From contig CAZCWH010000001.1 in the NCBI GenBank assembly GCA_964502345.1, positions 167-64,166 on the forward strand: a stretch of DNA of 64,000 nt. Reading direction: 5' to 3'. Below the pieces are notes generated by a model that worked only from the letters and a program-made list of their open reading frames with translations, did no database searches and was not told the origin of the DNA. This stretch comes from an uncultured Candidatus Saccharibacteria bacterium (GTDB lineage: Bacteria; Patescibacteriota; Minisyncoccia; Phycocordibacterales; UBA918). Below are positions 22,994-61,053 of this stretch, in pieces (the first letter of the stretch is position 1; each line of letters begins with the position of its first letter). Both the position numbers and the translations under genes were made by a program.

Positions 22994-22995
22994 AG

Positions 22996-23655: not shown

Positions 23656-23659
23656 GCTT

Positions 23660-25405
23660 CTATTGTACTATATGTTCGATATCTGATATTTCCTTTCGTA
23701 TCTTTGACCGTGCGTCAGCGAGATCTGTTTCAATTTGATCTATAAGAGTATTTTCTGCCTGTGTGAGCTTGCCTTTTCGTGACTCTTTCAGCTTTTCAAC
23801 ATTTTTGTGCATGTTGGTCATTACTTCGTCGAGCTCTATCTTCATTATACTCTCTACCTCAAGGGTTTCTTTCTCAACTTTTCGACGCCACACCGCAAGC
23901 CTGTGCCAGAGATACCAGCAACCAAAAATCAGTACAATAGAGAGTGAGATAAGCGGAACAAGTACAGAAAGCACCGTCACAACAAACGAACCAATTCGTA
24001 CGAATCCTGGTTCCTCAACTATAATTCTAATCGGATCTGAGACATCACTTGTTGCGCCGTGCATGTCTGTTGCAATTGCCGTTATGTCATACACACCAAT
24101 TTCAAATGGTGCGTCAGGGATGAATATGAATGCACCTCCCCCGTCGGATTTAAGTGTGTACGTTTTTGTAGCACCATCTGTTGGTGTCACTGACACCTCT
24201 ACCTGTGCGTCAGGACGTGTAGTACCCCTCAGTGCTGGGATTACTTCAGCGTTAATTCGTGATGGATACTCAGTAAAAAGTGGTTTCTCAAATGCTGTAA
24301 TATCAAATGAATATGTAGCAACTCGACTGTTACCTGCACCATCAAATGCTTCTACGATAAGTGTATGGTGTCCTGGCGCTATTGAAGGAAGCACGTACTT
24401 TCTCGTTTCTTCCTCATCTAGATATTCAAAAGGGTCAGTAGCATCAATCTGTATTTTGTATCGTGTTACAGGAGAAATATCTTCCACAGTAAACTGAAGT
24501 GTTCGCTTTGGATTTGATGGATCAAAATCAGTATCTTCTGAAACAGTAAATGCTGACGGCGCCTCACTATCTACCTGGATTTTAAAGTGGGTTACCCTAC
24601 CCCATCCCTCTGCATTTTTAAACTGAATATGGAAATACGATATGCCTTGTGGCAAATCCTCGAGTGTACGTGATCGAATGGGCTCGTCATATACGATGGT
24701 TGGTATTGTACTTGGAGCAGTGTCGAGTAATGTACGTACTGCAATAATTCCACTCGGTAGTTCCCAACTAAGCTCTGCAGCGTCATTCTTGTACCAGGTC
24801 TCCTGATTACCATGAGTCGTTGAAGTGACAACTGGAGCCTTTGGGGTATTGGCTGGTGCAATATACTCAGGCTCTGGATTACTCGTTACTGCAGAAATTG
24901 TATAGGAAGAACCAGTCATTGATGTCAGAACATTTGTTCCAAGTCCATCAGCTGCAAGCACTGAACCACTCTTAAAGGTGACTTTTGGATTACCTGCACC
25001 AAGAGGTCTAAACGTAATTGTTAAAATGTTCCCCGAGGCTCCGGTGTAACCCGTTGGTGATCCTCCTCCAAACGATATTGTGCCTAATGTATTTGAAAAA
25101 CTTGGCTCCTGTGTCCACAAATTAAAAATGGAACTCGCTCGAGAGACACTGACGACAGAAAGCTCCTTTGGGTTATAAGAAAGCTGACCATCTGCAGCAT
25201 TGACTGCTTTGTTTTGAGTATTAATGATCACATTTGCGGTAAATGTCCCTCCAACGGTATACACTCCCGTATCTGGACTCACACGAAGTGTTGCAGCATG
25301 TGCCGACTGTGTCATACAGATATACAACACACTCAAGAGACCAACGATGATGATCGTTCGTAAAAATACTATTCCTATACTATTCGATTTCAACATTGTC
25401 TTCAT
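23660..25405 (-). CDS. cohesin-domain bitopic membrane protein with a cytoplasmic coiled-coil tail
   Basis: signal peptide, then a cohesin-like domain (ATLRVSPDTGVYTVGGTFTANVIINTQNKAVNAADGQLSYNPKELSVVSVS...NLW). Ig-like domains follow, then a TM (IGSFVVTVLSVLVPLISLSIVLIFGCWYLW) and a ~90-aa charged helical tail. Confidence 0.7.
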   Translation of the reverse strand: MKTMLKSNSIGIVFLRTIIIVGLLSVLYICMTQSAHAATLRVSPDTGVYTVGGTFTANVIINTQNKAVNAADGQLSYNPKELSVVSVSRASSIFNLWTQEPSFSNTLGTISFGGGSPTGYTGASGNILTITFRPLGAGNPKVTFKSGSVLAADGLGTNVLTSMTGSSYTISAVTSNPEPEYIAPANTPKAPVVTSTTHGNQETWYKNDAAELSWELPSGIIAVRTLLDTAPSTIPTIVYDEPIRSRTLEDLPQGISYFHIQFKNAEGWGRVTHFKIQVDSEAPSAFTVSEDTDFDPSNPKRTLQFTVEDISPVTRYKIQIDATDPFEYLDEEETRKYVLPSIAPGHHTLIVEAFDGAGNSRVATYSFDITAFEKPLFTEYPSRINAEVIPALRGTTRPDAQVEVSVTPTDGATKTYTLKSDGGGAFIFIPDAPFEIGVYDITAIATDMHGATSDVSDPIRIIVEEPGFVRIGSFVVTVLSVLVPLISLSIVLIFGCWYLWHRLAVWRRKVEKETLEVESIMKIELDEVMTNMHKNVEKLKESRKGKLTQAENTLIDQIETDLADARSKIRKEISDIEHIVQ

Positions 25406-26471
25406 AGAGTGCTAACAGTTTTTGCTTGCGTCGCCAGAGCATGTATACAATAAGCCCACACACAACGATTACGAGCGTCCCCACAACAACCCACGTAATA
25501 ATTGTGCCCAAGGTTAATGTACGCATTGCCTCTGCAGGAACGAGGACCGCAACAGTTTCATTTCCTGCCTTATCAATTGCTTTGACACGTATTGTGCTAT
25601 TAAGTGTTTGATCAGTTAGGACATATGGGCTTTCAGTTGTCACCCATGGCGCATCAGCTCTCCCCCACCTAAATGCATAGAAATCTTCAAAGGGTTCTTC
25701 CATTACTTCATAGTGGTCGATTCCTGATTGTTTATCATGACTATTAAAGGATATGAAGTAGCGTCCACTAAACGCGAAATCATCTTTGAAAAGACTTATT
25801 AAAAAATCTGATGGCTTAGTGGTGTCCGTCTGGACACGATTTTTCCAGTCGTCTTCAGTTGTTTCACCTGCAGTGCCAAGTAGTGTGATTATGGCTCCCT
25901 GTGTACGTAGTGAAGCTGGAGTGCCGAAACCATCATGAATAAGCACTTGCGATGTCTCGTCAACCCAAATATTAGCTGTGGGTGCATCTCCAGCTCCGAT
26001 ACTAAAACCAGGTGACCGGAAGACAAGTTCTGCAATTATATTCGTGAGACTCGGATCACCAGCAATTCTTCCACAGTATCCACCAGGCAAGCCTCCTGCG
26101 AGTGTAATCGTGTGATTTTCTTCATCAATCTTAGGGTCCTCGAGCCAAATATTGAGAATTGAATCACCGCGCGATACATCAACGGCTCTGATGGCTGAAT
26201 CATACTTAATTACAGCATCGACTGCATTGATACATTCCCCTTCATCTGTATCAATTCTTAAACCGACCGTCACAGTATCACCTCGATTTAAATTTATTTC
26301 TCCTGGATCAAAATATAGAAGTGCAGCTTGTGTATGCACACATAACACCAAAAACAGTAGTGAAGAAAATAAAAAATAGGCGAAACCTCGCACGACATGC
26401 TGAATGGCGCTGTGCATATGTACGTATAGTATAACAGTCACTATAGTCTGACATAGCCCCACTACCCACAT
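25380..26471 (-). CDS. cohesin-domain membrane protein (N-terminal signal/anchor, cohesin-like domain, C-terminal TM)
   Basis: LLYFDPGEINLNRGDTVTVGLRIDTDEGECINAVDAVIKYDSAIRAVDVSRGDSILNIW is cohesin-like. The C-terminal TM is TIITWVVVGTLVIVVCGLIVYMLW. Confidence 0.65.
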   Translation of the reverse strand: MWVVGLCQTIVTVILYVHMHSAIQHVVRGFAYFLFSSLLFLVLCVHTQAALLYFDPGEINLNRGDTVTVGLRIDTDEGECINAVDAVIKYDSAIRAVDVSRGDSILNIWLEDPKIDEENHTITLAGGLPGGYCGRIAGDPSLTNIIAELVFRSPGFSIGAGDAPTANIWVDETSQVLIHDGFGTPASLRTQGAIITLLGTAGETTEDDWKNRVQTDTTKPSDFLISLFKDDFAFSGRYFISFNSHDKQSGIDHYEVMEEPFEDFYAFRWGRADAPWVTTESPYVLTDQTLNSTIRVKAIDKAGNETVAVLVPAEAMRTLTLGTIITWVVVGTLVIVVCGLIVYMLWRRKQKLLALYEDNVEIE

Positions 26472-26826
26472 AAAAAACCCATCTCGCTCTAAAGTGACCC
26501 AATGTCACTTTAGAGGAGGTTCTCGATAGTTTAATCCGCCTGAGGGCGGAGAGAACTATCATAGAACCAGAACAGCTTCTGTAAGAAGGTGGCTAGCCAC
26601 CACGAGCTTGGCTTTTCTTTTGAGCAAATCCATTTGCTCAAAAGAAAAACCCGTCTCGTGGTGCGACCCAATTTCTAAGGAGCGAAGCGACTATAGAAAT
26701 GGAAGTACTCCTAGATCAGCTCCGAACATCGCAGAATTCAAACATAGTGTAGCGGGTGGGATAAAAGAAAAACCCGTCTCGTGGTGGGAGATAGGGTTTT
26801 TCTAAACTCTTGTACTGTTGCTTGTT

Positions 26827-27963
26827 TTAGAACGTCGGTGTCGCAATGTAGCGAAGCTCCGTCGTATAGTCGTCGCCTGCTTCTTGGAGCGCCGAGATCT
26901 GAATCTGGTACCCGATGCGTGCGGCGCCTATTCCGGCAGTCACACCATCTGCTGGTCCCGTATGACCCATAACCACTATAGGTGTCGTGCTACCTGATAC
27001 CCATTCATCTGAACCAAACTCTTCTGGTGCAGAACGTGAAGTTGTAGCGTCAGTTGAGGTTAGACCCCAATGACCGTAGGTAGCGATGTCAGCAACAAGA
27101 GCACTTGGCCCTTGCCACGCAGTTGGTGTTTGCGTGTAGGCTCCATCGATGAATCCATCGATTATTCCGCCTGTTGTTGATTCGAGATCACCTGTTTGTT
27201 CTACTGTTACCGTGTAGCCGTGTAGGGCGTTTGTGGTAACAGAAAGATCTTGAGCAAGTGTTTTTGACGTATTGATTTCGAGTGTACCGAACGGTAGCGC
27301 TACATTAGTTGAAGTTGCTGCAGTCGTTGTTGGGCTCCCGTTCACGGTTGAGCTGGCTCCGACGCCAGTGACTGTGAATGTGAGCGAAGCATTGACGCTT
27401 GCAGATACCGTTACTTCATCAATGATAGCGACCCGAACTTGCCCTGAATCGGGCATGGTTCCACCGATTTCAATAAGATGCGATGTCGTTGTTGCAGTCG
27501 GGTTTGAGATCTGAGCATCCCCTCCTCCAAATAGACCAATCTCAATTACGAGTGGTGTACTTGATGCCTGCGGTACGTTACTCGGTGATGTGAGTGTTAG
27601 TACCTGAGCATTGAAGTAGGCTCCCCACACTCCACTTCCATTTACTGCCGCTACTGTTTGTGGAGTAGCTGATGCAGTGATGTCGATATCATCGAATGCC
27701 ATTGCTGGTATCGTGAAATCTACAGGAAATGTAATGGTGATCGTTGAACTTGCGAGCATACCAGTTGGCGTTGTAAACGCAATGGTGTGGTCGGAAGGCA
27801 ACCCTGGTGCAGAACTAGACAACGTATCACTTGCAAAAGTGATTGATGCAGCTTCCGCGGTGCGGAAGATGGTTGGAAGACCTGTACTCCAAAGGAATAC
27901 AGCGATACCAACAATCATTGCAACAGCCTGAAGAGTTCGCACGGTACTTGCCGTGTGAATCAT
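26827..27963 (-). CDS. secreted protein sharing the ~170-aa type-A C-terminal module with the 2471-aa giant protein
   Basis: 378 aa with a signal peptide. Its C-terminal half aligns by eye with the 2471-aa C-terminus (L.F.V.GV.ASST...PFG.L.I...VTTNA..GY... ...RYIA.P.F). Confidence 0.6.
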   Translation of the reverse strand: MIHTASTVRTLQAVAMIVGIAVFLWSTGLPTIFRTAEAASITFASDTLSSSAPGLPSDHTIAFTTPTGMLASSTITITFPVDFTIPAMAFDDIDITASATPQTVAAVNGSGVWGAYFNAQVLTLTSPSNVPQASSTPLVIEIGLFGGGDAQISNPTATTTSHLIEIGGTMPDSGQVRVAIIDEVTVSASVNASLTFTVTGVGASSTVNGSPTTTAATSTNVALPFGTLEINTSKTLAQDLSVTTNALHGYTVTVEQTGDLESTTGGIIDGFIDGAYTQTPTAWQGPSALVADIATYGHWGLTSTDATTSRSAPEEFGSDEWVSGSTTPIVVMGHTGPADGVTAGIGAARIGYQIQISALQEAGDDYTTELRYIATPTF

Positions 27964-28537
27964 AGGCTTTACGTTGTATTAACTACAGTATGTCGACTCT
28001 AATAATGAGCGGTTTGTATTGTTGTGCTCTTTCAACAATATTTACCTAGTAACCATGAGAGTCTCCACCCCTCTTTGATTCACTTTCGAACATACTACAC
28101 TCACCTCGACAACGCTCGGCTGTAAGCATTGGTACAGGATATTAATCCTAATACAAGTATTTCCTTCTCACATGTATGAAGTAAATACCTCGAAATGACT
28201 GTAAGTTCATTGTAACGTGAAGTTTTTTTATGAGCGGTTACTTATACACAAAATGGAGTAAAAATTCTTGTCACGGTAAATTTTTCACAAACCGCCAGCC
28301 TCCCTTGTACTCAAGGACTAAAAAGGCACCCCGTGTAATTGCAACTTATTTAACTAACTTGAGTTCCTTTCATCGCTTTTTCTTCATTGAAAAAGAAAAA
28401 GCGACGAACTCAGAAAATATCGGCCAGTTGCTTATGTCCAAATTGAAAGTTGGAGCAGGGCGTCTCCACAAAGCATCAGGAAAAGCATTGTGGAGACGGA
28501 CTCCTAAAGTATTGTCGCTGCGCTCTGTACTTTAGGG

Positions 28538-29662
28538 TCACCCGGTCCAGTTGAAGAGAAGGATTGAGAAGTCTTCGAGACTGACTCGACCATTTTGATT
28601 AATGTCTGCTGGAGGATTCGAGTTTCCACCTGGCGTATTCCACCAAAAAATCAGGATTGAAAAGTCGATTAGATTTACCTTCCCGTCACGATTGAGATCC
28701 GAGTTACTCGTCGGCCTCCCCTCAACTCCTACAAATAGTGACAGTGCCGTACCATAGGTACTTTCTGTTTTGAGGTTGCCTGTTCCTTCAATGAATCGTG
28801 CCTTTGCGGTGTGTGTATCTGCGGTGACGCTCGATGTATTGAAATCAACACTCCAATTTCCATTCGCGTCTGATGTTGTCCTCAGAGTTTGCTTTCCATT
28901 ATCAATTGATACTTCAACTGCAACACTTGGAACTGTTTGCCCACGCAAAATTATTGTCTCACCGGGATTAGGAGCATTATTGGAAGCACGTATAGTTGGT
29001 GGAATTAGCACACCGTTTACGTTTGTCACTGCACCCTGCGTTATATCAAACGTAGTACTGAATGTTGCAGATCGTGTCCCCGCAGTATCATTTGCCCAAA
29101 AGCTAAGTGATGCTGTACCAGGTTCAGTATCTGTATTAAATAAAAATTCTCCCCTACTATTTGTACGCACAGTCCCCACTGACTCACCATCAATTAAAAT
29201 AGTAACGGTGACATTCGGATACGCTTTCCCCTGCACAGTCACTTGCGTATCGCCAAGTTCGGTATCTCGTCCTCCTGACCCTGAATTTCCACCACCACCG
29301 GTCGATCCTCCTCCTGCATCTGCTTCTTCTTCTGTACAGTCTGCTGCACAAAAATCACCATCGGTATTGTTACCATCATCACACTCCTCTGAATAAATCG
29401 TTTGTAAAATAGCATCACCACAATATGGTGCCCACCTACAAATATCAGTGCACTGTCTTCCTGCGATTGTTGTGCTGTATTCCCCAGTATCTGTTGGGAT
29501 ATCACAGCTTTCTCCTGCATTGACAATAAGGTCACCACAAATACTAATGAGTAGCGAAGTCGTCGCAATACTTGATTGAGACGAAGCAACAAGAGGAACA
29601 AACATGGTGAGCAAACCACATATGCTTAGAATGAAATGATACGCAGGTCGTTTAGCGTACAT
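28538..29662 (-). CDS. secreted dockerin-bearing protein. Myxococcus-type Cys-rich repeats, a Gly-rich linker, two Ig-like domains, and a C-terminal dockerin.
   Basis: CGDxxxxxGEECDDGNNTDGDFCAADC-type repeats. The C-terminus DLNRDGKVNLIDFSILIFWW...DINQNGRVSLEDFSILLFNWTG is a dockerin duplicated-segment motif. Confidence 0.7.
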   Translation of the reverse strand: MYAKRPAYHFILSICGLLTMFVPLVASSQSSIATTSLLISICGDLIVNAGESCDIPTDTGEYSTTIAGRQCTDICRWAPYCGDAILQTIYSEECDDGNNTDGDFCAADCTEEEADAGGGSTGGGGNSGSGGRDTELGDTQVTVQGKAYPNVTVTILIDGESVGTVRTNSRGEFLFNTDTEPGTASLSFWANDTAGTRSATFSTTFDITQGAVTNVNGVLIPPTIRASNNAPNPGETIILRGQTVPSVAVEVSIDNGKQTLRTTSDANGNWSVDFNTSSVTADTHTAKARFIEGTGNLKTESTYGTALSLFVGVEGRPTSNSDLNRDGKVNLIDFSILIFWWNTPGGNSNPPADINQNGRVSLEDFSILLFNWTG

Positions 29663-29665
29663 ATG

Positions 29666-30604
29666 CTAACGTGCTCGCGAGCGTCGTGACTTCCCTATGC
29701 GTATGACAACAAACGCAAACGATATAATAAAGAATAATACTGGTGCAATCACAGAAAGCTTGTGCGGTAATGAAAGTCCACTAAACCCAAAACCAGCAGT
29801 CTGTAATGTTCCATACGGCAAGATACTCACGTTTACTTCACCATTTAACTTAACCTCCTCATCGTTCAATATCTCAAATCGTGCTAGGTAACTTCCTGCA
29901 GGGAGTCTTGTTGGCAATTCAGCGAACACAGTCTCAACTTTAAAAGGATCAACCTCATCTATTTTTCCCTTCTTATGAGTCTCTTCCAAAAGTACCTTGC
30001 CTGTGCTGTCATAGATTCTAAACACAACGTCACTTGGAGCGACTGGAACATTTCCTAAGTTTTCAAGAAGCATTTCAAAACGGATTTTTCCTGGGAAATA
30101 CAACCACCCAACTTTATGTCCTTCGTTTAAATCAGATATGCCAATTTTTCTTACTTTAAAATCTTTAATCTCCTTATCAATGACCGTAATATCTACATCG
30201 ATTTGTGCTCCTAGAGAAATATTTACTGCTCCACCAGACACCTGATCATCGGGGGCACCGGTCTTAATACGAATGTTACCAGTGTAATCCTTAAAATCAG
30301 CATCATCTGGAACCTTTACCCGAACGGTCATTGGAATTTTTTGCGCTCCCTGCGGTAGTAAAAATTCGTTTCCTTCAACAATAGTAAACCACTCATTGAT
30401 ACCAGGAACATCAACACTGATTGTTGCTTTAAGCGCAGTAGTTGGATCACTACGTACGAGATAAATTATTTGCTCATACTCAGAATTTCTTGTAAGACTT
30501 GCGTTCGATACATAGGGAGGCGTAATTCCAAATCCCGCATGAACAGTCGCAGTCACTGAAAAAGCAAGCAGTATAGCCAATAAAAGAGATCTATAGATTC
30601 CCAT
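29666..30604 (-). CDS. DUF916/DUF3324 (CscA)-like membrane-anchored cell-surface protein
   Basis: signal peptide, then GFGITPPYVSN... as a DUF916-like start. Two beta-rich domains, a C-terminal TM, and an RSRRSRAR tail. Confidence 0.5.
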   Translation of the reverse strand: MGIYRSLLLAILLAFSVTATVHAGFGITPPYVSNASLTRNSEYEQIIYLVRSDPTTALKATISVDVPGINEWFTIVEGNEFLLPQGAQKIPMTVRVKVPDDADFKDYTGNIRIKTGAPDDQVSGGAVNISLGAQIDVDITVIDKEIKDFKVRKIGISDLNEGHKVGWLYFPGKIRFEMLLENLGNVPVAPSDVVFRIYDSTGKVLLEETHKKGKIDEVDPFKVETVFAELPTRLPAGSYLARFEILNDEEVKLNGEVNVSILPYGTLQTAGFGFSGLSLPHKLSVIAPVLFFIISFAFVVIRIGKSRRSRAR

Positions 30605-30673
30605 TATTCAAAACGCAGCCGCAAAATGCGTATGCTACCTAATTATCAAACGGTTAAGCCATAAACGCAAGAA

Positions 30674-30699
30674 CCACCGTAGGATAACGGTGGTTTTTT
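30674..30699 (+). terminator. hairpin CCACCGT-aggata-ACGGTGG followed by TTTTTT
   Basis: a perfect 7-bp stem plus a T6 run in plus-sense. It lies just 3' of the stop of minus-strand gene 30718..32601, where the A-run on the other side is weaker. Confidence 0.35.
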
Positions 30700-30717: not shown

Positions 30718-32601
30718 CTACCAGTCGATTGATTCTCCTACTTTTGCAGTGAAAGTGTTTTCACCGGTATAGTCACCTGCATATGAGATAGTTATTGGAA
30801 CTCTAATACCCCAGAAAGCATCTGCCGTGGCCTGTGATGAGGTTGCTGTAGACTTAGGTACGTTGATTTCAATTTCCTTTGGCGTGGTTGAAGATAGTGT
30901 GAATCCTGCATTAACAGCATCTGTATAGCTTATAGAGCTAGTTGCAAACACCTGCTCACTTTCTGGAATTGTCGATGATGCAGACTGAGGACAGAGAGTT
31001 GATCCAGTATACGTAGTACACATTGATTCACCTGTTACATCTTTATCGAGACCAACGTTTCCAGTTGCAGCTATAGTTGTCTCAGCTACAAGAGGATCCG
31101 TTTGTTGTCCAGGTTCAAGTGCACCATATGGAATCGAAAGCGTGTTGAGAGCGAATGCAAGGAAACTTGTTACCTCAACCCCAGTATCCGCTTCTGAAAG
31201 TGATCCAGTTAATGAGACACCGTTGTTACCTTGTTGCCCATCATCAATAGCACGAACTTGTGCCCTCCAATCGTTCCATGAATACTTGGTAGACGTTGCT
31301 GTTCCATCAGTTGGATCTGCGACATACCAAAGTGGGAATGTACAATTCCAAATCATATCAACGTCTGATGAACCAGTACATGAGGTAGTTGAAGCCGTAC
31401 AATTAAGATTCCAGACAGCACTTGAAACAGAGCTTGGGTAACAATTATTTGGGTCATATGGACCAGTAACTGGGCACGTTGATGATGAACTTGTGATGGT
31501 ACCAGTACCGTTTCTGTAAATACTCAAATCGTAATCAATGACTTCATCTCCAACTCCACCACCAACCGCATCGCAACTATTATTATCTACAGTAGTAAAT
31601 GACAAACTGAAGCCTGTAGTTTCAGCTGCTTCATTCACAAGAACTATATTAGTAGTTGTCGGTTGGACAAGTGAAATAGTCGAGGCAGTAACTGTCGGTG
31701 CAATATTACCTACCGTAAGTATCGAGTTTGTTCCTTGTGTAGTAGTAGCTTCAAATCCGTGACTATCAAAAACATACCCATACGCTCCATAGTTTTGGTC
31801 TTGAGTAGGAACAACTACTGTATACGTAGCGGTTGCATTAGCAGCAACAAATACTGTGGTACTTGCAAGCGTTGTTCCTGTGCATGAGTCAGTTGTCGTA
31901 CTGAAGCCTGCTGTTGCACAAACGAAGAGCTTTACAAAGTCCTGTGTTCCAGATACATCTGCATCAGTTGAAGTACTTGTGAAAACTACAGCATTACCTG
32001 GAGTTGTCGTTGAGTTATCCCAGAATGAAGTAAAGTTTGGTCGGTGATTGATTTCAAATGGTGATGAGTTGGTTGCATTTGTTCCTTGTGTGTATGAGCT
32101 ATTGCATCGTGGTGATACTGAGTTACCGTCGCAAATCCAAGCAAACCAAGCATTGGATTCTGACCAGCTGTGTAGTGATGTGGTTGCAGCTCGTGCCTGT
32201 GTTCCAGAAGTTGTTGTTGCTGAAACTGCATACTGCACACCGTTATTACAGTGTGGCGCGCCATTGCTAGTTGCAGATGCTGTATCGCTTGTACTACATA
32301 TGAGAAGCCAGTAATCCTCAGCGTTCGAGTCTGTAGCGACTGCAACCCACGCAACTACATCCCCTGCATTAGTTGGTGTTGTTGCTGAAGACTCCGTTTC
32401 CTCTGTTGTAGAGGCTGTCCACTGAGGAGGGGTGTTAAGAACAGTAACTGATGTAGTTGCATTTTCCTGAGCAACTACTTGCTTGAGATCATTTGTACCA
32501 AGATTGAAAATAAATACAAATGCAAAAATCAGCACTCCAATGATTGTGGTGTACACAGTGATTTTACCTGCCGTACGTAAATTATCTGTGTTATATGACA
32601 T
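30718..32601 (-). CDS. secreted Cys/Thr/Ser-rich surface protein (627 aa) with the type-B C-terminal module shared with the 7248-aa giant protein
   Basis: N-terminal TM/signal. The last ~330 aa align by eye with the giant protein's C-terminus (PNNCY...DPTDG...WRA...YGALE...FWGI.[IV]P...G[TE]NTF). Confidence 0.65.
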   Translation of the reverse strand: MSYNTDNLRTAGKITVYTTIIGVLIFAFVFIFNLGTNDLKQVVAQENATTSVTVLNTPPQWTASTTEETESSATTPTNAGDVVAWVAVATDSNAEDYWLLICSTSDTASATSNGAPHCNNGVQYAVSATTTSGTQARAATTSLHSWSESNAWFAWICDGNSVSPRCNSSYTQGTNATNSSPFEINHRPNFTSFWDNSTTTPGNAVVFTSTSTDADVSGTQDFVKLFVCATAGFSTTTDSCTGTTLASTTVFVAANATATYTVVVPTQDQNYGAYGYVFDSHGFEATTTQGTNSILTVGNIAPTVTASTISLVQPTTTNIVLVNEAAETTGFSLSFTTVDNNSCDAVGGGVGDEVIDYDLSIYRNGTGTITSSSSTCPVTGPYDPNNCYPSSVSSAVWNLNCTASTTSCTGSSDVDMIWNCTFPLWYVADPTDGTATSTKYSWNDWRAQVRAIDDGQQGNNGVSLTGSLSEADTGVEVTSFLAFALNTLSIPYGALEPGQQTDPLVAETTIAATGNVGLDKDVTGESMCTTYTGSTLCPQSASSTIPESEQVFATSSISYTDAVNAGFTLSSTTPKEIEINVPKSTATSSQATADAFWGIRVPITISYAGDYTGENTFTAKVGESIDW

Positions 32602-32673: not shown

Positions 32674-33888
32674 TTATTCATACCGAATGGCATCAAGCGG
32701 GTTGAGAAGTGACGCTCTACGCGCTGGAAAAATTCCAGTTAAATAGCCTACTGCAGCCGAGAAAATCGCAATGAATGTAAGGAAGGTTAGCGGGAAAGAA
32801 AACAAGTTTACTGATTGACCACCGAACTGACTTGCCGCGATGTTCAACAGGATATTCACCACAATCCCCAGCGTTACCCCCATAGCTATCCCCGTCACAC
32901 CTCCCATGAACCCTACGACAATTGACTCGGAAATGAAGAGGAATTTAATGTCACGAGGCGAAGCGCCGAGCGTTCGCATAATCCCAATTTCTTTTGTACG
33001 TTCAAGAAGTGTGACTGTCATTGTGTTGAACATACCGATCGCTGAAACAAGGAGTGCAATACCTCCGAACGTTGCCAAGACTGCCTGCACTCCTTCAAAA
33101 ATCTTTGATGCTTGCTCAACTGTCTTTGAAAGTGCAGTAACCCGATACCCTGCCTTTATGAGTGATTCTTCGGTTACGGTGAGGAATTCATTTGATACCA
33201 CTTTCACTTGAGCACGGTCGTACTCTTCTACCCCCACGTAGTTTTTAAGTTCTTGAAGCATCATGAGTGCATTGAGTACACCTTCTTCCTTTGTAACCCC
33301 TCGAACCTTAAACTGCTTCTCGATTACAATCTCATTGATTGTATCTGTTCCATCGTCTGCAGGAATCAAGAGGCGAAATGAAACCTCCTGTCCTATAAAA
33401 GAATCGATTTTATCATCAGCAATACCGAAAAGCTTTAGAACAGCAGGTGAAATCATCACATCAGTTCCGTTTCCAATATCAGCTTCCTGAAAAACTTCTC
33501 CGTATGTCGCAGTTATACCTGAATATCGTATATATGCAGGTTCTGCTCCTTGAAGGAAGACATTACCAGTTAGACCTTTATAGGTAATGAGCGCAGGATA
33601 CCGTGCGAGCGGAGCAGCATCTTGAATATTTGGGTCCTTTTCAAATTCAGCGATAACCTCGTCAGTGATTGAAAGATTTCGTGCCCCCGTTGCCGAGACG
33701 CCAAGTGAGAGAAGACTGTCACCGAAGACAATCTGTTCAAGAATGATCTGCTGAAGACCAAACCCGAGTCCAACAAGCACAACGACTGCCCCGGTTCCCA
33801 CTCCCATACCAAGAATAGTAAGCCACGTACGAAGTGGATTCGTCTTAAACATTCTCGTTGAGAGTCGAGCGAGATCAGCAACTTGCAT
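32674..33888 (-). CDS. ABC transporter permease, FtsX/MacB-like, with a large extracytoplasmic domain
   Basis: 404 aa with TM1, an ~220-aa periplasmic-type domain, then a 3-TM FtsX domain with TLGAS...G motif context. Confidence 0.85.
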   Translation of the reverse strand: MQVADLARLSTRMFKTNPLRTWLTILGMGVGTGAVVVLVGLGFGLQQIILEQIVFGDSLLSLGVSATGARNLSITDEVIAEFEKDPNIQDAAPLARYPALITYKGLTGNVFLQGAEPAYIRYSGITATYGEVFQEADIGNGTDVMISPAVLKLFGIADDKIDSFIGQEVSFRLLIPADDGTDTINEIVIEKQFKVRGVTKEEGVLNALMMLQELKNYVGVEEYDRAQVKVVSNEFLTVTEESLIKAGYRVTALSKTVEQASKIFEGVQAVLATFGGIALLVSAIGMFNTMTVTLLERTKEIGIMRTLGASPRDIKFLFISESIVVGFMGGVTGIAMGVTLGIVVNILLNIAASQFGGQSVNLFSFPLTFLTFIAIFSAAVGYLTGIFPARRASLLNPLDAIRYE

Positions 33889-33982
33889 ACTGTAGTGTAA
33901 TAGTAAACAAAAAACACCGAATACGAAACCTGGTTGCTCGCATAACTAGCACTCAAAGCTAAAAGCGCACTTTGAGCGTGCA

Positions 33983-35305
33983 TTAATTTTTGTAACTCAC
34001 ATCAACACCGAGTGCGATGAGTTTCTCCATATAGCGAGCAATATCATCTGCTACTTTTTCCTTAAGACCAAGACCTCCTGTTTTTTCGCTTTCCATGAGC
34101 CCTTGATGGAACTGTACATCACCGTAAATACCCGAGAGCCTATCTGCAATGAGTCCAGCCATATTTTCATTTGTCTTTTTTGAAAGCGGTATATTATGAC
34201 ACTGGAGTAAATATTCCCGTACCCGTTCAGCAAATTTATGCTGTTGAAAGAATGCGGCATCTGATGTGTTATCACTTCGGTATCGTCGAACATCATCTGC
34301 CTGTGTTACGAGTGTGACTGAAAGGTCAGACATTCGCTCAGCCGTCACACGATCAATCCCAATACCTCCTTCTTCATACTTGCGGATGAGTGTCTGCGTA
34401 AAGAGTTTTTTATGTATTTTGCCTGAGATAAGCAGTCGAATCGCCTTTTCAAGTCGCACGAGTTGGTCAAATGTATAGTCTTGCGTGAGAAAGTTCGTGA
34501 GGCTTTTCACTCGAAGTGTTTCAACAGAGTCGTACGGAAAAAGACGAGCAAGTTGTTCAAGTTCAGTCACAATAGTCTCGCCTTCCATAACTGGTTTAAT
34601 CTGCTTACGTTGTGGATTAACAACCTCACGAACAATAAATCCATCTTTGAGATAGTACACGCGGTGCGCATATGCAAGGTGTGCTGCATTATGGGAAACC
34701 ATGATGATAGTACGCATATCAAATGTATTGATTTCATCAATCTTATCCATCACTTGCTGTGTCGAAACACTATCGAGATTCCCTGTCGGTTCATCCGCAA
34801 GAAGAATCTGAGGATCATTCACCATGGATCGAGCCACCGATACACGTTGCTGTTGTCCTCCAGAAAGCATAGAAGGAATTTTGTGCGATACCCCTCCCAC
34901 ACCAAAGCGATCAAGGAGCGACTGCGCTCGACGTTCACGAGTTGCCTTATTTGCATCACAAAAAATCATTGGGAGTGCCACATTATCAAGAACTGAGAGC
35001 GAACCAATGAGGTTAAATGACTGGAAGATAATACCCATGACGTATCGTTGAAAAAACACACGTTCTGCTGGTGGATACGCATATACATCATCACCACGAA
35101 TAAGCAGTGTTCCGTCCCCAGGCGGGAGTGAGCCTTGAATCGAATACATGAGTGTAGATTTACCACACCCTGATGGACCGAACAGAATGATATATTCACC
35201 CTCGTAGATATCAGTATTAACGCCTTGGAGTGCTTTAAACTCATTCGACTTACCTTTGTTGTAGGTAATCGTGAGATCTCGACAGACGATGAGTGGTTTA
35301 GCCAT
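33983..35305 (-). CDS. ABC transporter ATP-binding protein (FtsE/LolD/MacB family) with an unusual ~200-aa C-terminal extension
   Basis: Walker A GPSGCGKST, signature LSGGQQQRV, Walker B ILLADEPT, H-loop. The protein is 440 aa against ~230 for typical FtsE. Confidence 0.9.
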   Translation of the reverse strand: MAKPLIVCRDLTITYNKGKSNEFKALQGVNTDIYEGEYIILFGPSGCGKSTLMYSIQGSLPPGDGTLLIRGDDVYAYPPAERVFFQRYVMGIIFQSFNLIGSLSVLDNVALPMIFCDANKATRERRAQSLLDRFGVGGVSHKIPSMLSGGQQQRVSVARSMVNDPQILLADEPTGNLDSVSTQQVMDKIDEINTFDMRTIIMVSHNAAHLAYAHRVYYLKDGFIVREVVNPQRKQIKPVMEGETIVTELEQLARLFPYDSVETLRVKSLTNFLTQDYTFDQLVRLEKAIRLLISGKIHKKLFTQTLIRKYEEGGIGIDRVTAERMSDLSVTLVTQADDVRRYRSDNTSDAAFFQQHKFAERVREYLLQCHNIPLSKKTNENMAGLIADRLSGIYGDVQFHQGLMESEKTGGLGLKEKVADDIARYMEKLIALGVDVSYKN

Positions 35306-35311: not shown

Positions 35312-36823
35312 TTATCCACCGATATTCTTAACCCAACCAAAGGTGCCTTGGAAGTTTTCAATGATTATATCAATGATATTTTTCTCCTGTATTGGAGTAA
35401 AAAGTACGTAGTTCTCGGAATCCACTGCATTCTTCGCTTCATCTTCACAATTAAGCCAAAACTGATACACAGTAGCTGGTGCAAATTCAACAATAACTTC
35501 AACGTGTTGTTCACTGTAGCTGACATCTTTTGCTTCAACTAAGGTTGGGTCTACTCCTCCCACGATACCTTCTCGATAGAAAAGCTTACAAAAAGCTGGT
35601 TCATCAGTACTCCACTCAATGATAGTCTGAATACGCGATTCACCTCCTGGAAAAAGAGTTGACTCGTTTGTTACGTTACTGATTATTGGTGCAGCAGTGT
35701 CCTTAACGGTAATAAATGTAATCGGATTACTTTTTACACGATCACCACCAGCATTTTCTGCAATAACGAATGCGACATATCGTGTCCCAAGCGTGAGGTC
35801 AGCAATACGCATCTGATGTGTCGAAGCAAGTGTTGGACGCCCAATTGAATTTTGTGTACCGGTAGTAAGGTCTTGATACTCAATGAGTGCTTTTGCGGGG
35901 ACTGTTGTGTCCCACGCGAGTGTTGCTGAGTTTTCTTCAACTTTGACGATACGTAGATTTTTAATTTCTGGAAGCGAAGCCTTCGTCATAAATGTGTAAT
36001 CACGACTTTCTCCCAGAATCCCATATGTGTCCTTCGAGCGAACCTTAAAGTGATATTCGGTATATGCTTCAAGGCCAATGAGTCGAACTTCGTGCTCTGT
36101 TGTATTACCACCTGGGTCAGCTTGAGAAAAACTATACTGATCTGGGACATATGAATCAGTTGGTGAAAAAACGACTTCAGAACTTGATTCACGATCTGTG
36201 GTCCACTTGACGATAGCGCTCGTGGTCTCGGCAATAACGGTTGGAGGACCAACAATAGTAAGATCTTCGGTGATACCCTCAATTGCCTTCACGGTCTCAT
36301 TGAGGATTTCCTGCAAAATTTCAGGAGATTGAATTTGTTCAATTTGTTCAACAATTTCCTGTGTTGTCTGTGATTGAGATTGTGATTCACTCTGTACTGT
36401 TTGTTCAGTTTGAGTTTGTGACTCTGCGCCTTCCCCAGCTTCTGCACCAACCTGTGGTGTTCCTTCGGTCAGCACTTTATAGTTAGCTGAAATACCTTGG
36501 TTTCCATCTTCATCAGAAGAAACTACACGAAAATAGTATGTGCGCCCTGGTTCAAGACCGTTGAGGGTGATGGTGTGCTCCGTTTTATCAACTTGAGGAA
36601 CACGAACGATACCGTAATCCTCTTGAAGACCATAATTCACGAGTGAATCTGCATTTTCATCTGTCTCCCAGGTAATCGTTACTGTATCCTCCGCAACATT
36701 CGTAATTTGCACATTGGTTATATCAGGCGGAATTGCGTCAGCAGCACGAACGACTGGTGACACCTGTATGTAGTAAATCAACACAAAAAGCGTGAGCGCT
36801 ACTGAAGAGAGCGAACGTAACAT
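35312..36823 (-). CDS. secreted protein with tandem fibronectin type III domains
   Basis: signal peptide. Four FN3-like units (ITWETDENADSLVNYG..., IVKWTTDRESSSEVVF..., TLAWDTTVPAKALIEYQ..., IIEWSTDEPAFCKLFY...). Confidence 0.7.
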   Translation of the reverse strand: MLRSLSSVALTLFVLIYYIQVSPVVRAADAIPPDITNVQITNVAEDTVTITWETDENADSLVNYGLQEDYGIVRVPQVDKTEHTITLNGLEPGRTYYFRVVSSDEDGNQGISANYKVLTEGTPQVGAEAGEGAESQTQTEQTVQSESQSQSQTTQEIVEQIEQIQSPEILQEILNETVKAIEGITEDLTIVGPPTVIAETTSAIVKWTTDRESSSEVVFSPTDSYVPDQYSFSQADPGGNTTEHEVRLIGLEAYTEYHFKVRSKDTYGILGESRDYTFMTKASLPEIKNLRIVKVEENSATLAWDTTVPAKALIEYQDLTTGTQNSIGRPTLASTHQMRIADLTLGTRYVAFVIAENAGGDRVKSNPITFITVKDTAAPIISNVTNESTLFPGGESRIQTIIEWSTDEPAFCKLFYREGIVGGVDPTLVEAKDVSYSEQHVEVIVEFAPATVYQFWLNCEDEAKNAVDSENYVLFTPIQEKNIIDIIIENFQGTFGWVKNIGG

Positions 36824-37019: not shown

Positions 37020-40000
37020 CTAATCTCCAATTGCGTAAAACGTATTCGTCCCCTGGTGTGGATTCCCTGCAACTCCAAATGGAATTGCTATACCCCAGAA
37101 AAGTTGATCACTCACAGAAGGTGTCGTAGAAGTCGGCTTTGTGAGGTCAAGTTCATAATTCGTAGAACTTGCAGAAAGCTGGCTACAGAACGTACACGTG
37201 GTGTATGTAAATGTTGACGTTGCAAAGATTTGCTCATTAACAGGAATGAGTGAGGAATTACCATCAGTAAGGTCAGTTCCTGCTATCGCAATATCGAGAG
37301 CGTCATTTCCGATATTTTCAACCGTTGTTGTTGCATTATAAGAACCTGTGTCGTTATTAACTTCTAGAGCCCCATAGTTAATAGTGCTGTCTACTGTAAT
37401 TGCACGCAAAGTGAGTAGATCTATCGAAGGTGCTGTGCCTGTCGCAATAGCACCGCTTTGATCACTCACCGAAAGTTCTGCGCGCCATGTTTGACCAGCG
37501 TAGGTACCAACATCTGTTGGGTCTGCATGGTAATAGAAATCTGCCGAACACGTTACGTCACATGAACTTCCACTACAATTTTCAAACACGCACTGTGTTG
37601 GAGAAGCTATGTAGCAGTTATTTGGATCACTCGTACATGACGAGAGCACACTTGAGCGGAACATGGTAGTTGTTGCGAGATTCAAATCACCATACCCGTT
37701 GAGGTCCGAGACTGTCCCTGTTGCGTAAATTGTCGTTGTCGCACCAGGTGAAAGAGTGATGTCATTTCCACCATTAAGTGAGAGTGAGGTTACGACCGGT
37801 GTAAACACAAGACTCAATTCTGCAACCTTTGTGTATGCGTCGAGCTCTGCCCCTTCGTTTGTCACACGGAAACAATAGTTCGAATCACTCACGTTAATTG
37901 TGGGTGCGATTACATACTCAAGTTCTGTAAACTCACCTGAATCGACATCTAGGCTTCCTGTGTTATTGCTTGAATCTTCCACTACCTGTCCTGGTGTAAA
38001 CACACCCGAGCCTCCGAGGAGGTCAGTCGTACTTTCCAAGTCTGTAATATTGGAAGAAGACACCATACAAATATCACTCGTACCGCAACTTGCGACATTC
38101 GGAACCTCTACATAGTCATTGTAATCAACAGATTCACAGCTCGGTGCTGCACCCTTTGGTGCAAACTCAATCTCATAATTTTGCGCACTCACTGGAGTTC
38201 CGCTATTTTCTACGAGGAATCGAACGCGAGCAGTTTCCCCTATATCAATTCCAGAAGCAGGGGTATTACGAGCAGAAGTCCATGTTGCACCACCAGGAAC
38301 CTGTTCACCACCTAAGCTCGTAGTTGCAGCGGTTGCCATGAGCGGACGAGCTGAGTAAATATCCCATCCACCGTGGTATCCCCAAAGTGTAAATCCAACA
38401 CCTCCCGAGGTGTAGCTACTGTCCGTCGCACTGGTTGTTGCAACCACACTGCCATTTTTCGATAGCCGTACATATATTGAGTCATCGGTATCCCAATCAA
38501 CTTCAACTTCATACCAACCTGTACTGTACGTTACTGTTGTTGATGCAAGTACGGTACCACTCGTATCACGATGGGTTGCATTTTCAGAAATAGAGAGTCG
38601 ATCAACACCGAAAAGTTCGAGACATACCGCATAACTTGTCGCTCCTGTCTGAACACCAAAGTGGGTACATGATTCGTCCGCTGCTCCACTCACAGTATCA
38701 ATGTATTGGAGCCATCTAAGTGTCTGCCCTTGCGCTACCGTCACGCCAAGATTACGCATGTTCTGATCTGTCTTTGAATTGGTTTGATCAAACGCTTCAA
38801 GCCTATATGTTCGCTCATATGCGCTACTTCCCACCACACTAAAGTCTCCAGTGTCACCAGTGTACTCACTGATATTTCCATCTTCAAAGTTGTCCATGAA
38901 GTCAAACGTCGATGTTGCACTTCCATCACTCACCGTACCTTCCCCGTAGTACATGTATACAGTTGCTGTTGTTGACGTTGCAAGTGTTGGTACCTTGACC
39001 CACACAACAGCTTGTGTACTTGCAGTATATGATTCGGTGAAGTGTTCTACCGCAGTGAGCCCATCTTCTTCTGTAAATCTTAGATCATCAAAATCGGCCT
39101 GCATATCACTGTCATATGGCACGATGACCTTCACGGCGACGTCATGATAGGTTACTGGATCAGAATTTGTTACCGTGACACGCTTTCGCTTACTCCAGTC
39201 AAAGTCAAACCACTCTGAATTTGGTACGCCTTCCCCACCATCGTCGTTTCGGAATCGATACGCTGATTGCTCAATGAGTATACAGTTGCTATCGTCCCAT
39301 CGTATTGAACCACAGGCATCCCCACCATCAATATCGAATGCTTCACCATCAAAGTTTCCTGTATGTGACACAAATGTCCATGCACTCGGCGTAGAGCCAC
39401 TCAACTCTACGTTTGCTCCAGTGATAGCCGTTGTTGTTGCAAAGGCAACTCCAGTCACAAAGAGTCCTGCGTTGTAGTTGAGTGTTGTTGAGGAGAGCGT
39501 TATGAGTGAACCTCCATTTACCGCAAGCGTGAAGTTACCTTCGGTGAGTGAACTTACGGTCGTGAGACCACTTAATTTTAGTCCGTCAACATTCATATTT
39601 GCGAAGCTGTAGTAGAGTGCATTGAGTGTGCCTCCAAGAATATCAATCGCATAGGTACCGCTTCCTTGATTAGAAATAGTTGTATCAAATCCACTTGCTC
39701 CTACGATATTGAGTGATCCACCCTGAAGTGTCGTGGTTGCATTCGCCGCAATGTACACAAATACCTGTCTTGAACTTCCGCCAAGCGCGGTGCCATCGAA
39801 ATCAGTTGCATAGCTCCAGTAGTCAGCACCTGCGGTTCGCTCATAATCTCCATAGATGTAGAGGACACCACTTACACCTGCATGATCTTGTGAGTAAAAT
39901 GAACTTTCTGAATCAGTGATTGTAATCGTGCCCGTACTATCCCACGCACGAAGCTCCGTACTTGAACCAACGCGGATATTGTTGTAGGTATCTCCACCCG

Positions 40001-61030: not shown

Positions 61031-61053
61031 AAAAAAGCACCCCGTGCTTTTTT
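61031..61053. terminator. bidirectional intrinsic terminator AAAAAAGCAC-ccc-GTGCTTTTTT
   Basis: perfect 10-nt complementary arms with a GC core, flanked by an A-run and a T-run. A degenerate copy sits at ~28321-28345. Confidence 0.55.

What the first reader, a model, noticed from the sequence alone, without database searches (positions are those of the whole stretch)
30718..31710. Type-B conserved C-terminal module shared by the 627-aa protein and the 7248-aa giant (37020..38010)
The last ~330 aa of both contain a Cys-rich region (PNNCY...C..C...DPTDG.....WRA) followed by YGALE...FATS...FWGI.[IV]P......G[TE]NTF near the C-terminus. Together with type-A this defines two families of C-terminal cassettes appended to surface proteins in this island. 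Each family pairs one giant and one small protein.
Basis: seen in the sequence. Interest (0 to 1): 0.55.

Follow-up and report, generated by a model that had tools for sequence, protein, structure and literature searches.

The report
Shared anchor module of surface proteins
A two-domain C-terminal module is truly shared by a 627-aa protein and a 7248-aa giant; across ultra-small (CPR/Paceibacteria) bacteria a small subunit, a size-variable large adhesin and a membrane-anchored chaperone-like protein recur together, which suggests how these cells mount giant proteins on their surface.

Summary
The last 330 aa of the 627-aa protein and the last 260 aa of the giant are homologous (BLASTP 4e-17; a profile built only from small proteins scores the giant's end at 174 bits, against 7.8 at most for 500 shuffles). 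AlphaFold2 (pLDDT 93) gives a Cys-rich Ig-like domain, an extended linker and a beta-sandwich C-terminal domain. No Pfam, NCBIfam or PDB sequence match was found, and fold matches are only generic Ig-like.

Context is the strongest evidence. In 79 Paceibacteria genomes the order is large protein ending in the module, fn3 protein, MacB-type ABC pair, small protein, 312-aa protein. More distant CPR clades keep a minimal triad: large protein, small protein, two-beta-sandwich membrane-anchored protein. The module sits at the extreme C-terminus in 148 of 150 representatives, on proteins of 172 to 7622 aa.

This triad has the same layout as Firmicute WxL clusters (small WxL, large WxL, WxLIP) and resembles CPR Pam pili. 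The neighbouring type-A module weakly matches the Pam pilin C-domain model. A low-confidence model of the 312-aa protein best matches WxLIP and PapD-like chaperones.

Best reading: an assembly and anchoring module working by beta-strand complementation. The small protein is the major subunit and the giant is the adhesin. Whether it polymerises is inferred, not shown. I rate it a new variant of a known kind.

The parts
30718..32601 (-). Small type-B protein (627 aa). Layout: signal peptide or anchor, conserved N-terminal strand motif, about 250 aa of N-terminal beta domains, then the type-B module.
   Evidence: ORF. A family of about 550-627-aa CPR proteins with no Pfam domain. HMM mapping gives B_nterm, B_ig and B_ctd in that order.
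31237..31710 (-). Type-B module, domain 1, in the small protein (residues 298-455): a Cys-rich Ig-like beta-sandwich carrying PNNCY, C..C, FPLWY-ADPTD and W.A.
   Evidence: AF2 model with pLDDT 93.4 and seven strands in module residues 13-156. Invariant Cys, ADPT and Trp columns.
31147..31182 (-). Conserved extended linker GVEVTSFLAFAL between the two module domains. In the giant it reads SIDLLTLRAITV, at 37392..37427.
   Evidence: Conserved in both small and large versions. In the AF2 monomer it is mostly non-regular or isolated beta-bridges, with pLDDT 86-95. Coordinates.
30718..31146 (-). Type-B module, C-terminal beta-sandwich domain (CTD), in the small protein (residues 486-627): IPYGALEPG, TGNVGLD, Q.FATS, FWGI.VP, G.YTG.NTF.A and the terminal W.
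   Evidence: AF2 strands at module residues 186-325. Conserved columns. Coordinates.
37020..37802 (-). Type-B module at the C-terminus of the giant (residues 6989-7248): Ig-like domain 37455..37802, linker, then CTD 37020..37391.
   Evidence: for the homology. maps B_ig and B_ctd to the giant's last ~260 aa; residue numbers and coordinates are.
37020..58766 (-). Giant protein (7248 aa): signal peptide, a passenger that is mostly unannotated (DUF2341 x3, Ig_Rha78A_N), then the type-B module.
32425..32460 (-). N-terminal motif ATTSVTVLNTPP just after the predicted signal-peptide cleavage site of the small protein. It is a candidate orphan or donor strand.
   Evidence: It is the second most conserved 12-residue window of the whole small protein. 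Found in 70 of 84 small-type proteins and 0 of 83 large-type proteins.
30672..30695 (-). Terminator-like hairpin (AACCACCG-loop-CGGTGGTT plus a T-rich tail) between the small type-B gene and the 312-aa gene.
   Evidence: Present at the same place in 74 of 79 loci, with stem sequences that differ between loci while staying complementary. A stem of 9 bp or more follows 63 of 80 small-B genes, against 0-10% for the other genes of the locus.
29666..30604 (-). 312-aa partner protein: signal peptide, two beta-sandwich domains and a C-terminal transmembrane helix (WxLIP / PapD-like).
32674..35305 (-). MacB/LolC-type ABC permease (32674..33888) and ABC ATPase with a long C-terminal extension (33983..35305).
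   Evidence: NCBIfam hits. The permease lies directly before small B in 72 of 74 loci. These are the most conserved genes of the locus, about 75% median identity. Both are absent from the distant-clade triads.
35312..36823 (-). Secreted protein with several fn3 domains, lying between the giant and the ABC genes.
   Evidence: Pfam fn3 in three stretches. Conserved position. Median identity 69%.
26827..27963 (-). Small type-A protein (378 aa): N-terminal domain, linker and CTD. It belongs to the sister module family in the same island.
   Evidence: Weak match to NCBIfam NF058581 CPR_Pam_pilin_C (E=8e-4; 8 of 28 homologues match at E<=0.01, best 2.3e-10; where scores were shown they lie below the cut-off of 55). 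1044 homologues, of which the top 120 are at least 63% identical.
12916..20331 (-). Large type-A protein (2471 aa) ending in the type-A CTD.
   Evidence: Its C-terminal 148 aa match NF058581 at E=1.9e-9 and 37.8 bits, below the cut-off of 55. A_ctd HMM hit at residues 2294-2471.
10552..12935 (-). Two further proteins with the layout signal peptide, two beta-sandwich domains, transmembrane helix: 344 aa (11901..12935) and 450 aa (10552..11904), both downstream of the type-A giant.
   Evidence: Both hit Pfam PF06030 WxLIP_PGBD (DUF916) below threshold, at E=0.0028 and 6.1e-5. The 312-aa protein against the 450-aa protein gives BLASTP E=0.004. Sequence.

Best explanation
The type-B module is a Cys-rich Ig-like domain, a linker and a beta-sandwich CTD. 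I read it as the assembly and anchoring unit of a CPR cell-surface structure. The minimal gene set of that structure is a triad:
(i) a small protein that is all structure and is probably made in excess;
(ii) a large or giant protein with a hypervariable N-terminal passenger that ends in the same module;
(iii) a membrane-anchored protein of two beta-sandwich domains, related in fold to WxLIP and PapD.

Proposed mechanism. All three proteins are exported by Sec. The membrane-anchored protein binds and stabilises the module's CTD by beta-strand complementation. Modules are then joined to one another by strand donation, as in CPR Pam pili and chaperone-usher pili, so that small subunits build a stalk or filament. 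The large protein carries the acceptor module but lacks the small-specific N-terminal strand motif, so it ends up distal as the adhesin, following the FimH/PapG logic of passenger plus pilin domain. In Paceibacteria a conserved MacB-type ABC pair and an fn3 protein were added to the triad, possibly to power or scaffold assembly.

Shown here: the homology of the two modules; their two-domain all-beta fold; their strictly C-terminal position; hypervariable passenger size; the conserved triad; and the conserved terminator-like hairpin after the small gene.

Inferred, not shown: strand complementation, polymerisation, which strand is donated (the N-terminal TSVTVLN motif or the linker), the distal position of the giant, and the role of the ABC pair.
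For: Homology.
Fold: pLDDT 93.4, two beta domains joined by an extended conserved segment.
Position: the module is at the extreme C-terminus in 148 of 150 representatives, on proteins of 172-7622 aa, 13 of them 5000 aa or longer.
Synteny: large(B), fn3, ABC, ABC, small(B), 312-aa across 79 species-level genomes.
Minimal triad: large(B), then one or two small(B), then a homologue of the 312-aa protein, in distant clades without the ABC pair.
The sister type-A module weakly matches the NCBIfam Pam pilin C-domain model.
Pam pili are experimentally shown donor-strand filaments of CPR, and membrane-anchored PapD-like chaperones are proposed for them (preprint 10.64898/2026.03.03.709456).
WxL clusters have the same layout, and a predicted WxLIP strand inserts into the WxL domain (PMC10599100, PMC9772566).
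Small-only features fit a polymerising major subunit: the N-terminal strand motif is among the most conserved segments and is absent from all 83 large proteins, and a conserved terminator-like hairpin follows specifically the small gene.
Against: No sequence link ties type B to Pam pilins (0 of 64 members hit NF058581 even at E<=10), to WxL (no Pfam hit at E<=1) or to type A (hhalign probability 0.4-3%).
In the monomer model the CTD appears to have about seven strands, so an open groove is not evident. I could not inspect coordinates.
The giant keeps the conserved linker, so if the linker is the donor strand the giant need not be a tip subunit.
There is no expression, proteomic or imaging evidence for a filament in these organisms.
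Confidence: 0.5

Rival explanations
1. A non-polymeric surface complex of the WxL type. The module is a non-covalent anchor that binds the cell wall and/or the membrane-anchored 312-aa protein. The small protein is a platform or competitor subunit, the large protein displays adhesin domains, and no filament forms.
For: The layout is identical to WxL clusters: small, large with a C-terminal domain, and a partner of two Ig-like domains plus a transmembrane helix. The best structural match of the 312-aa protein is WxLIP itself. The 344-aa and 450-aa paralogues hit WxLIP_PGBD. The CTD looks like a complete sandwich in the monomer model.
Against: No Pfam WxL match and no pair of WxL motifs. A small-specific, highly conserved N-terminal strand and a dedicated terminator-like hairpin are easier to explain for a polymerising major subunit. 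The adjacent type-A family is related, weakly, to proven pilins.
Confidence: 0.3
2. The module is a C-terminal sorting or secretion signal domain, recognised and perhaps removed by the adjacent MacB-type ABC transporter. This would be analogous to the C-terminal signals of type I secreted giant adhesins or to the type IX secretion system (T9SS) C-terminal domains.
For: It is strictly C-terminal on giant proteins. The ABC pair sits between the two module-bearing genes in 72 of 74 Paceibacteria loci and is the most conserved part of the locus.
Against: Both proteins have N-terminal Sec-type signal peptides. The ABC is of the MacB/LolC type, not a type I exporter. The ABC pair is absent from the distant-clade triads, which keep the module and the 312-aa homologue. 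A module of 260-330 aa and two domains, with disulfide-type Cys pairs, is large for a signal.
Confidence: 0.08
3. The module is a ligand-binding (lectin or host-binding) domain shared because both proteins recognise the same host surface molecule.
Against: Binding domains of adhesins are normally distal and variable. Here the module is the conserved, membrane-proximal (last-exported) end, while the passengers vary. The tight linkage to a membrane-anchored partner argues for assembly.
Confidence: 0.07

Closest known systems
WxL / Csc cell-surface clusters of Firmicutes (small WxL protein, large WxL protein, WxLIP = DUF916-DUF3324-TM helix)
   Same: The gene layout is the same: a small protein that is little more than the shared domain, a large protein with N-terminal adhesin-like domains and the shared domain always at the C-terminus, and a signal-peptide protein of two Ig-like domains with a C-terminal transmembrane helix (PMC9772566, PMC10599100). 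Here the 312-aa protein's best PDB fold match is WxLIP, and its 344-aa and 450-aa paralogues hit WxLIP_PGBD weakly. The last strand of the module (G.Y.G.NTF.A) recalls the distal WxL motif Y...LTW.L. That resemblance comes from my own recollection of the motif and is a lead, not a test.
   Different: There is no match to the Pfam WxL model and no pair of WxL motifs. The shared unit has two domains and is Cys-rich. Passengers reach more than 7000 aa, against 500-1000 aa for large WxL proteins. No LPXTG protein was noted among the proteins examined (not specifically searched). In Paceibacteria an ABC pair and an fn3 protein are part of the conserved locus. The host lineage is CPR, not Firmicutes.
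Pam pili of CPR bacteria (PamA/PamB pilins, PamC/PamD membrane-anchored PapD-like chaperones, PamT tip; Troman et al. 2026 preprint)
   Same: It occurs in the same superphylum. Pam pilins are built as a beta-sandwich N-terminal domain, a linker strand and a truncated Ig-like CTD, with paired cysteines, which matches the size and layout of the type-B module (about 330 aa). The proposed chaperones carry a C-terminal transmembrane helix like the 312-aa protein. The sister type-A module of this island weakly matches the NCBIfam Pam pilin C-domain model.
   Different: Type B does not match that model at all. The small type-B protein has about 250 extra N-terminal residues. Giant proteins that carry the pilin-like unit are not mentioned in the preprint text: the words giant, adhesin, ABC and Paceibacteria give no hits. 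In its text the preprint highlights Pam homologues mainly in Saccharimonadia and Microgenomatia. No ATP-synthase linkage is seen here.
Two-domain tip adhesins of chaperone-usher pili (FimH, PapG, CupB6, CfaE)
   Same: The logic is the same: an N-terminal binding passenger and a C-terminal pilin domain that accepts a strand but lacks the donor extension of the shaft subunits. Here the large proteins lack the small-specific N-terminal strand motif. CU pilins, adhesins and chaperones appear among the fold hits.
   Different: There is no usher and no outer membrane. There is no sequence similarity, and the fold hits are not specific. The passenger can be 7000 aa.
Giant RTX/BAP adhesins exported by type I secretion
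   Same: A giant surface protein with a conserved C-terminal element and an ABC transporter encoded nearby.
   Different: Sec signal peptides are present. The ABC is of the MacB/LolC type. The element is a folded two-domain unit shared with a small structural protein. The ABC pair is dispensable in other clades.

Membership tests
WxL domain family (Pfam PF13731) / WxL cluster | Match to the WxL domain profile | tested here: not met
   Pfam scans of the 627-aa protein and of the giant's last 699 aa at E<=1 returned no WxL hit.
WxL domain family (Pfam PF13731) / WxL cluster | Two conserved Trp-x-Leu motifs on adjacent C-terminal strands | tested here: not met
   The conserved C-terminal strands read [FY]WGI..P and G.NTF.A. 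That is one W-x-I and no second WxL.
WxL domain family (Pfam PF13731) / WxL cluster | [quoted passage not shown] | tested here: met
   148 of 150 representative proteins end with the module.
WxL domain family (Pfam PF13731) / WxL cluster | A cluster of at least one small and one large bearer plus a WxLIP-type protein (two Ig-like domains and a transmembrane helix) | tested here: met
Pam pilins (NCBIfam NF058581 CPR_Pam_pilin_C) | Match to the Pam pilin C-domain model | tested here: not met
   0 of 64 type-B sequences match at E<=10. For comparison, type A matches below the cut-off: 37.8 and 19.5 bits against 55.
Pam pilins (NCBIfam NF058581 CPR_Pam_pilin_C) | Beta-sandwich N-terminal domain, single linker strand and truncated Ig-like CTD | tested here: inconclusive
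   AF2 gives two beta domains joined by a conserved extended segment. I could not inspect coordinates to see whether the CTD is open, and the Pam structures were not in the searchable libraries.
Pam pilins (NCBIfam NF058581 CPR_Pam_pilin_C) | Polymerisation by donor-strand exchange | not testable with these tools
Pam pilins (NCBIfam NF058581 CPR_Pam_pilin_C) | An operon-encoded PapD-like chaperone with a C-terminal transmembrane helix | tested here: inconclusive
Chaperone-usher pilins | An usher and a periplasmic chaperone, with a pilin fold lacking the G strand | not tested
   No usher-like gene turned up among the window proteins scanned against Pfam, but not every ORF was scanned and no dedicated usher search was run. 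The link to the pilin fold is not specific.
Type I secretion substrates | A C-terminal secretion signal, no Sec signal peptide, and a dedicated type I ABC exporter | tested here: not met
   N-terminal signal peptides are present. The ABC pair is of the MacB/LolC type.

The most novel reading that the evidence does not exclude
The giant surface proteins typical of CPR/Paceibacteria are not free-standing adhesins. They would be subunits of an usher-less, strand-complemented filament: their C-terminal two-domain unit is a pilin core that plugs them into a stalk built from the small protein, under control of a membrane-anchored PapD/WxLIP-like protein. If so, this system, the CPR Pam pili and the Firmicute WxL/Csc clusters would be branches of one ancient monoderm 'chaperone without usher' assembly superfamily. 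WxL clusters would then need reinterpreting as pilus-like machines.
Probability: 0.25. Interest if true: 0.8.

Novelty: new variant of a known kind. Interest (0 to 1): 0.6.

Why it matters
CPR bacteria make up a large share of bacterial diversity and are thought to live attached to hosts. Yet how most of them, Paceibacteria in particular, build their attachment apparatus is unknown, and their giant genes are unexplained.

This finding defines a widespread family: more than 1200 representative clusters at 50% identity. It also defines a minimal three-gene unit that says which end of the giant proteins is the conserved mounting end and which proteins they must interact with.

That makes the question testable by complex prediction, by heterologous co-expression of the triad, and by cryo-EM of enrichment cultures. 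It also links two systems described separately, WxL clusters and Pam pili.

Tried and rejected
- Pfam and NCBIfam scans of the module: no family.
- Profile search of PDB sequences: only E about 0.6 noise.
- The afdb50 library was unavailable.
- hhalign of type B against type A, as whole alignments and as CTD only with enriched alignments: not significant. I do not claim that A and B are homologous.
- hmmsearch of the whole 7248-aa giant with the family profile returned nothing, even with --max --nobias. Searching the last 350-700 aa alone recovered the match; I did not establish why the whole-protein search failed. All later mapping used 500-aa windows.
A narrower alignment worked.
- Look-up of the window's own contig by exact protein failed.
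- I considered a sortase/LPXTG anchor, a T9SS-like CTD and a type I secretion signal. They were rejected for lack of motifs, because Sec signals are present, and because the ABC pair is absent in other clades.
- The PamA and PamB sequences and structures (PDB 25PZ, 25QA) could not be obtained for a direct comparison.
Full report
**1. Observation**

The window is almost entirely coded on the minus strand. It contains a 627-aa ORF (30718..32601) and a 7248-aa ORF (37020..58766). Their C-termini align by BLASTP at 32% identity over 239 aa, E=4e-17 with compositional adjustment.

I built a profile only from small-type proteins: the 627-aa protein plus 32 full-length homologues found in a 5.8-billion-protein search. 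It matches the giant's last 260 aa over profile positions 280-547, at E about 3e-54 in that two-sequence search. The real segment scores 173.8 bits; 500 residue shuffles reach 7.8 at most. So the similarity is homology, not Ser/Thr-rich composition.

A search of the whole giant with the same profile returned nothing, even with the filters off. Searching the C-terminal 350-700 aa alone recovered the match; I did not establish why. All later mapping used 500-aa windows.

In the giant it is residues 6989-7248, or 37020..37802. That is 260 aa rather than 330 aa.

I aligned 84 small-type and 55 large-type modules taken from other genomes.

**2. Anatomy**

AlphaFold2 on a 64-sequence alignment gives a very confident model (pLDDT 93.4, pTM 0.87) that is all-beta:
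- a seven-strand Cys-rich Ig-like domain (module residues about 13-156);
- a conserved extended segment (about 160-190, containing GVEVTSFLAFAL);
- a second beta-sandwich of six to seven strands (186-325).

**3. Distribution**

The small-type family (about 530-630 aa, signal peptide, no Pfam domain) is found only in CPR/Patescibacteria assemblies wherever a source names the organism.

A search with the giant's module against 1.84 billion representative proteins finds 1204 clusters at E<=1e-3 and 858 at E<=1e-10. In 148 of the best 150 the module lies at the extreme C-terminus. Those proteins range from 172 to 7622 aa; 63 are at least 1000 aa and 13 are at least 5000 aa, and many are truncated by contig ends. 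Only 5 have the small-type N-terminal region.

So the module is a strictly C-terminal unit on passengers of very variable size.

**4. Context**

A scan of one genome per species found 99 relatives. The 80 loci kept are almost all from MAGs labelled as CPR (Kaiserbacteria, Nomurabacteria, Azambacteria, Parcubacteria, Minisyncoccia, and a batch labelled generically as Saccharibacteria); two carry non-CPR labels (Acidimicrobiales, Azotimanducaceae).

Mapping profiles of every island gene onto these loci shows near-invariant synteny:
- large protein ending in the B module
- fn3 protein
- ABC ATPase
- MacB/LolC-type permease
- small B protein
- 312-aa protein
- dockerin protein
- small type-A protein
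- two cohesin proteins with transmembrane helices
- 219-aa, 245-aa and 595-aa proteins

Counts:
- The 312-aa homologue directly follows small B in 71 of 77 loci.
- The permease directly precedes small B in 72 of 74 loci.
- A large protein ending in the B module lies upstream in 56 of 58 loci with at least 6.5 kb of flank.
- Eight of these large proteins are complete, at 688-1286 aa. The rest run off the flank, at up to more than 2902 aa.

In more distant CPR clades the small B protein is only about 33% identical, and the ABC and fn3 genes are absent. A triad still remains:
- L003, L084, L085 and L086 read: large protein ending in the B module, then one or two small B genes, then a homologue of the 312-aa protein.
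- L001 and L087 have two small B genes followed by that homologue.

The conserved functional unit is therefore large(B) + small(B) + the 312-aa-type protein.

**5. The partner protein**

The 312-aa protein has a signal peptide, two beta-rich regions and a C-terminal helix. It is very strongly conserved: 1581 homologues, and the best 120 clusters are all at least 73% identical.

There is independent support. Two further proteins of the island share the same layout of signal peptide, two beta domains and a transmembrane helix: 344 aa and 450 aa, both downstream of the type-A giant. Both hit Pfam WxLIP_PGBD (DUF916) just below threshold (E=0.0028 and 6.1e-5). The 312-aa protein resembles the 450-aa one weakly (E=0.004).

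**6. Comparison with known systems**

*WxL clusters.* Firmicute WxL/Csc clusters are defined by three proteins. One is a small WxL protein. [quoted passage not shown] The third is WxLIP (DUF916-DUF3324-TM helix), a strand of which is predicted to insert into the WxL domain (PMC9772566, PMC10599100). The layout here is identical.

*Pam pili.* In CPR, a 2026 preprint solved Pam pili. PamA and PamB are built as a beta-sandwich N-terminal domain, a linker strand and a truncated Ig-like CTD. They polymerise by donor-strand exchange. The preprint predicts membrane-anchored PapD-like chaperones PamC and PamD and a CTD-only tip pilin (10.64898/2026.03.03.709456).

*Type A.* The island's type-A module matches the NCBIfam Pam pilin C-domain model weakly. 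The 2471-aa protein scores E=1.9e-9 and 37.8 bits against a cut-off of 55, and 8 of 28 small-A homologues match at E<=0.01.

*Type B.* It matches neither that model (0 of 64), nor Pfam WxL, nor type A by profile-profile comparison. Type B therefore shares the layout, size and context of these systems but is not a demonstrable member of either family.

**7. Features that separate small from large**

The small proteins alone carry, right after the predicted signal-peptide cleavage site, a motif (ATTSVTVLNTPP; 'SVTTSVTVGNSAP' in other clades). It is the second most conserved 12-residue window of the whole protein. It occurs in 70 of 84 small proteins and in none of 83 large proteins.

The motif resembles the strand-plus-'N.AP' boundaries that precede the protein's internal domains (FEINHRPNF, LTVGNIAPTV). 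It therefore looks like a terminal strand without a domain of its own, which makes it a candidate donor strand. That is inference.

The linker inside the module is conserved in both small and large versions, so it is the alternative donor, as in Pam pilins.

A terminator-like hairpin with a 9-12-bp stem follows the small gene in 74 of 79 loci, with stem sequences that differ between loci while staying complementary. It is specific to that gene: a stem of at least 9 bp follows 63 of 80 small-B genes, against 0-10% of the other genes. This fits a major structural subunit made in excess of its partner.

**8. Mechanism and confidence**

I commit to the module being the assembly and anchoring unit of a strand-complemented surface structure. 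In this model the small protein forms the stalk or filament, the large protein is the adhesin, and the 312-aa protein acts as a membrane-anchored chaperone or anchor. The Paceibacteria-specific ABC pair and fn3 protein would be accessory.

That the module serves for assembly or anchoring rather than ligand binding seems likely, at about 0.75-0.8. That it polymerises in a Pam-like way is about 0.45-0.5. The main rival is a non-polymeric complex of the WxL type (0.3). A secretion-signal role (0.08) and a lectin role (0.07) are less likely.

**9. Novelty**

I rate this a new variant of a known kind. It is a sequence-distinct family with the WxL/Pam layout, found in a lineage (Paceibacteria) that the Pam preprint's text does not mention. 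It is fused to passengers of up to about 7600 aa and, in Paceibacteria, is coupled to a MacB-type ABC transporter.

Noticed in passing
window 30672..30695 (-), and the same position in L004-L083: A conserved intrinsic-terminator-like hairpin lies about 22-35 nt after the stop of the small type-B gene. Stem sequences differ between loci while staying complementary, and the loop is often GTTATCC. It is present in 74 of 79 loci. A stem of 9 bp or more follows 63 of 80 small-B genes, against 0-10% of the other genes in the locus.
   Followed up: yes
window 10552..12935 (-): Two adjacent genes (344 aa and 450 aa) downstream of the type-A giant encode proteins built as signal peptide, two beta-sandwich domains and a transmembrane helix. 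Both hit Pfam WxLIP_PGBD (DUF916) just below threshold. With the 312-aa protein, the island has three such proteins, which recalls the two chaperones PamC and PamD.
   Followed up: partly
window 45748..46168 and 50917..51337: A 420-nt direct repeat inside the giant gene: 93% identical, with a 323-nt exact run, spaced 5169 nt apart. It duplicates a DUF2341-containing segment of about 115 aa. This could reflect recent duplication or gene conversion, or it could be an assembly hazard.
   Followed up: partly
giant residues about 2878 and 6964 (the latter about window 37870..38000); 2471-aa protein residues about 1164, 1516, 2088 and 2269: Both giants, type A and type B, share a repeated domain ending in 'Y[CY]FR...L..Y' ('YCFR domain'). 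One copy sits immediately upstream of each C-terminal module.
   Followed up: no
window 22256..29662 and 58850..63042 (-): The island holds a set of cohesin-like proteins with C-terminal transmembrane helices (363, 581 and 510 aa) and dockerin-bearing proteins (374, 245 and 623 aa; the 245-aa protein has both domains). This suggests a second, cellulosome-style anchoring network. The four inside the syntenic block (363, 581, 374 and 245 aa) are conserved in position with the type-A and type-B genes.
   Followed up: partly
window 26827..27963 and 29666..30604 (-): The small type-A protein and the 312-aa protein are very strongly conserved in public data. The top 120 clusters at 90% identity are at least 63% and at least 73% identical to them, out of 1044 and 1581 hits. 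That is far more hits than for the small type-B protein (93 hits). Many small type-A homologues sit on contigs of only about 1.3-1.4 kb.
   Followed up: no
L003, L084, L085, L086: In distant CPR clades the homologue of the 312-aa protein is longer (418-476 aa). After the transmembrane region it carries a C-terminal SH3-type domain.
   Followed up: no
window 37020..58766 (-): A method note. hmmsearch of the whole 7248-aa protein with the family profile reports no hit, even with --max --nobias, although the C-terminal 350 aa alone score 172 bits. Giant proteins therefore need to be searched in windows.
   Followed up: yes
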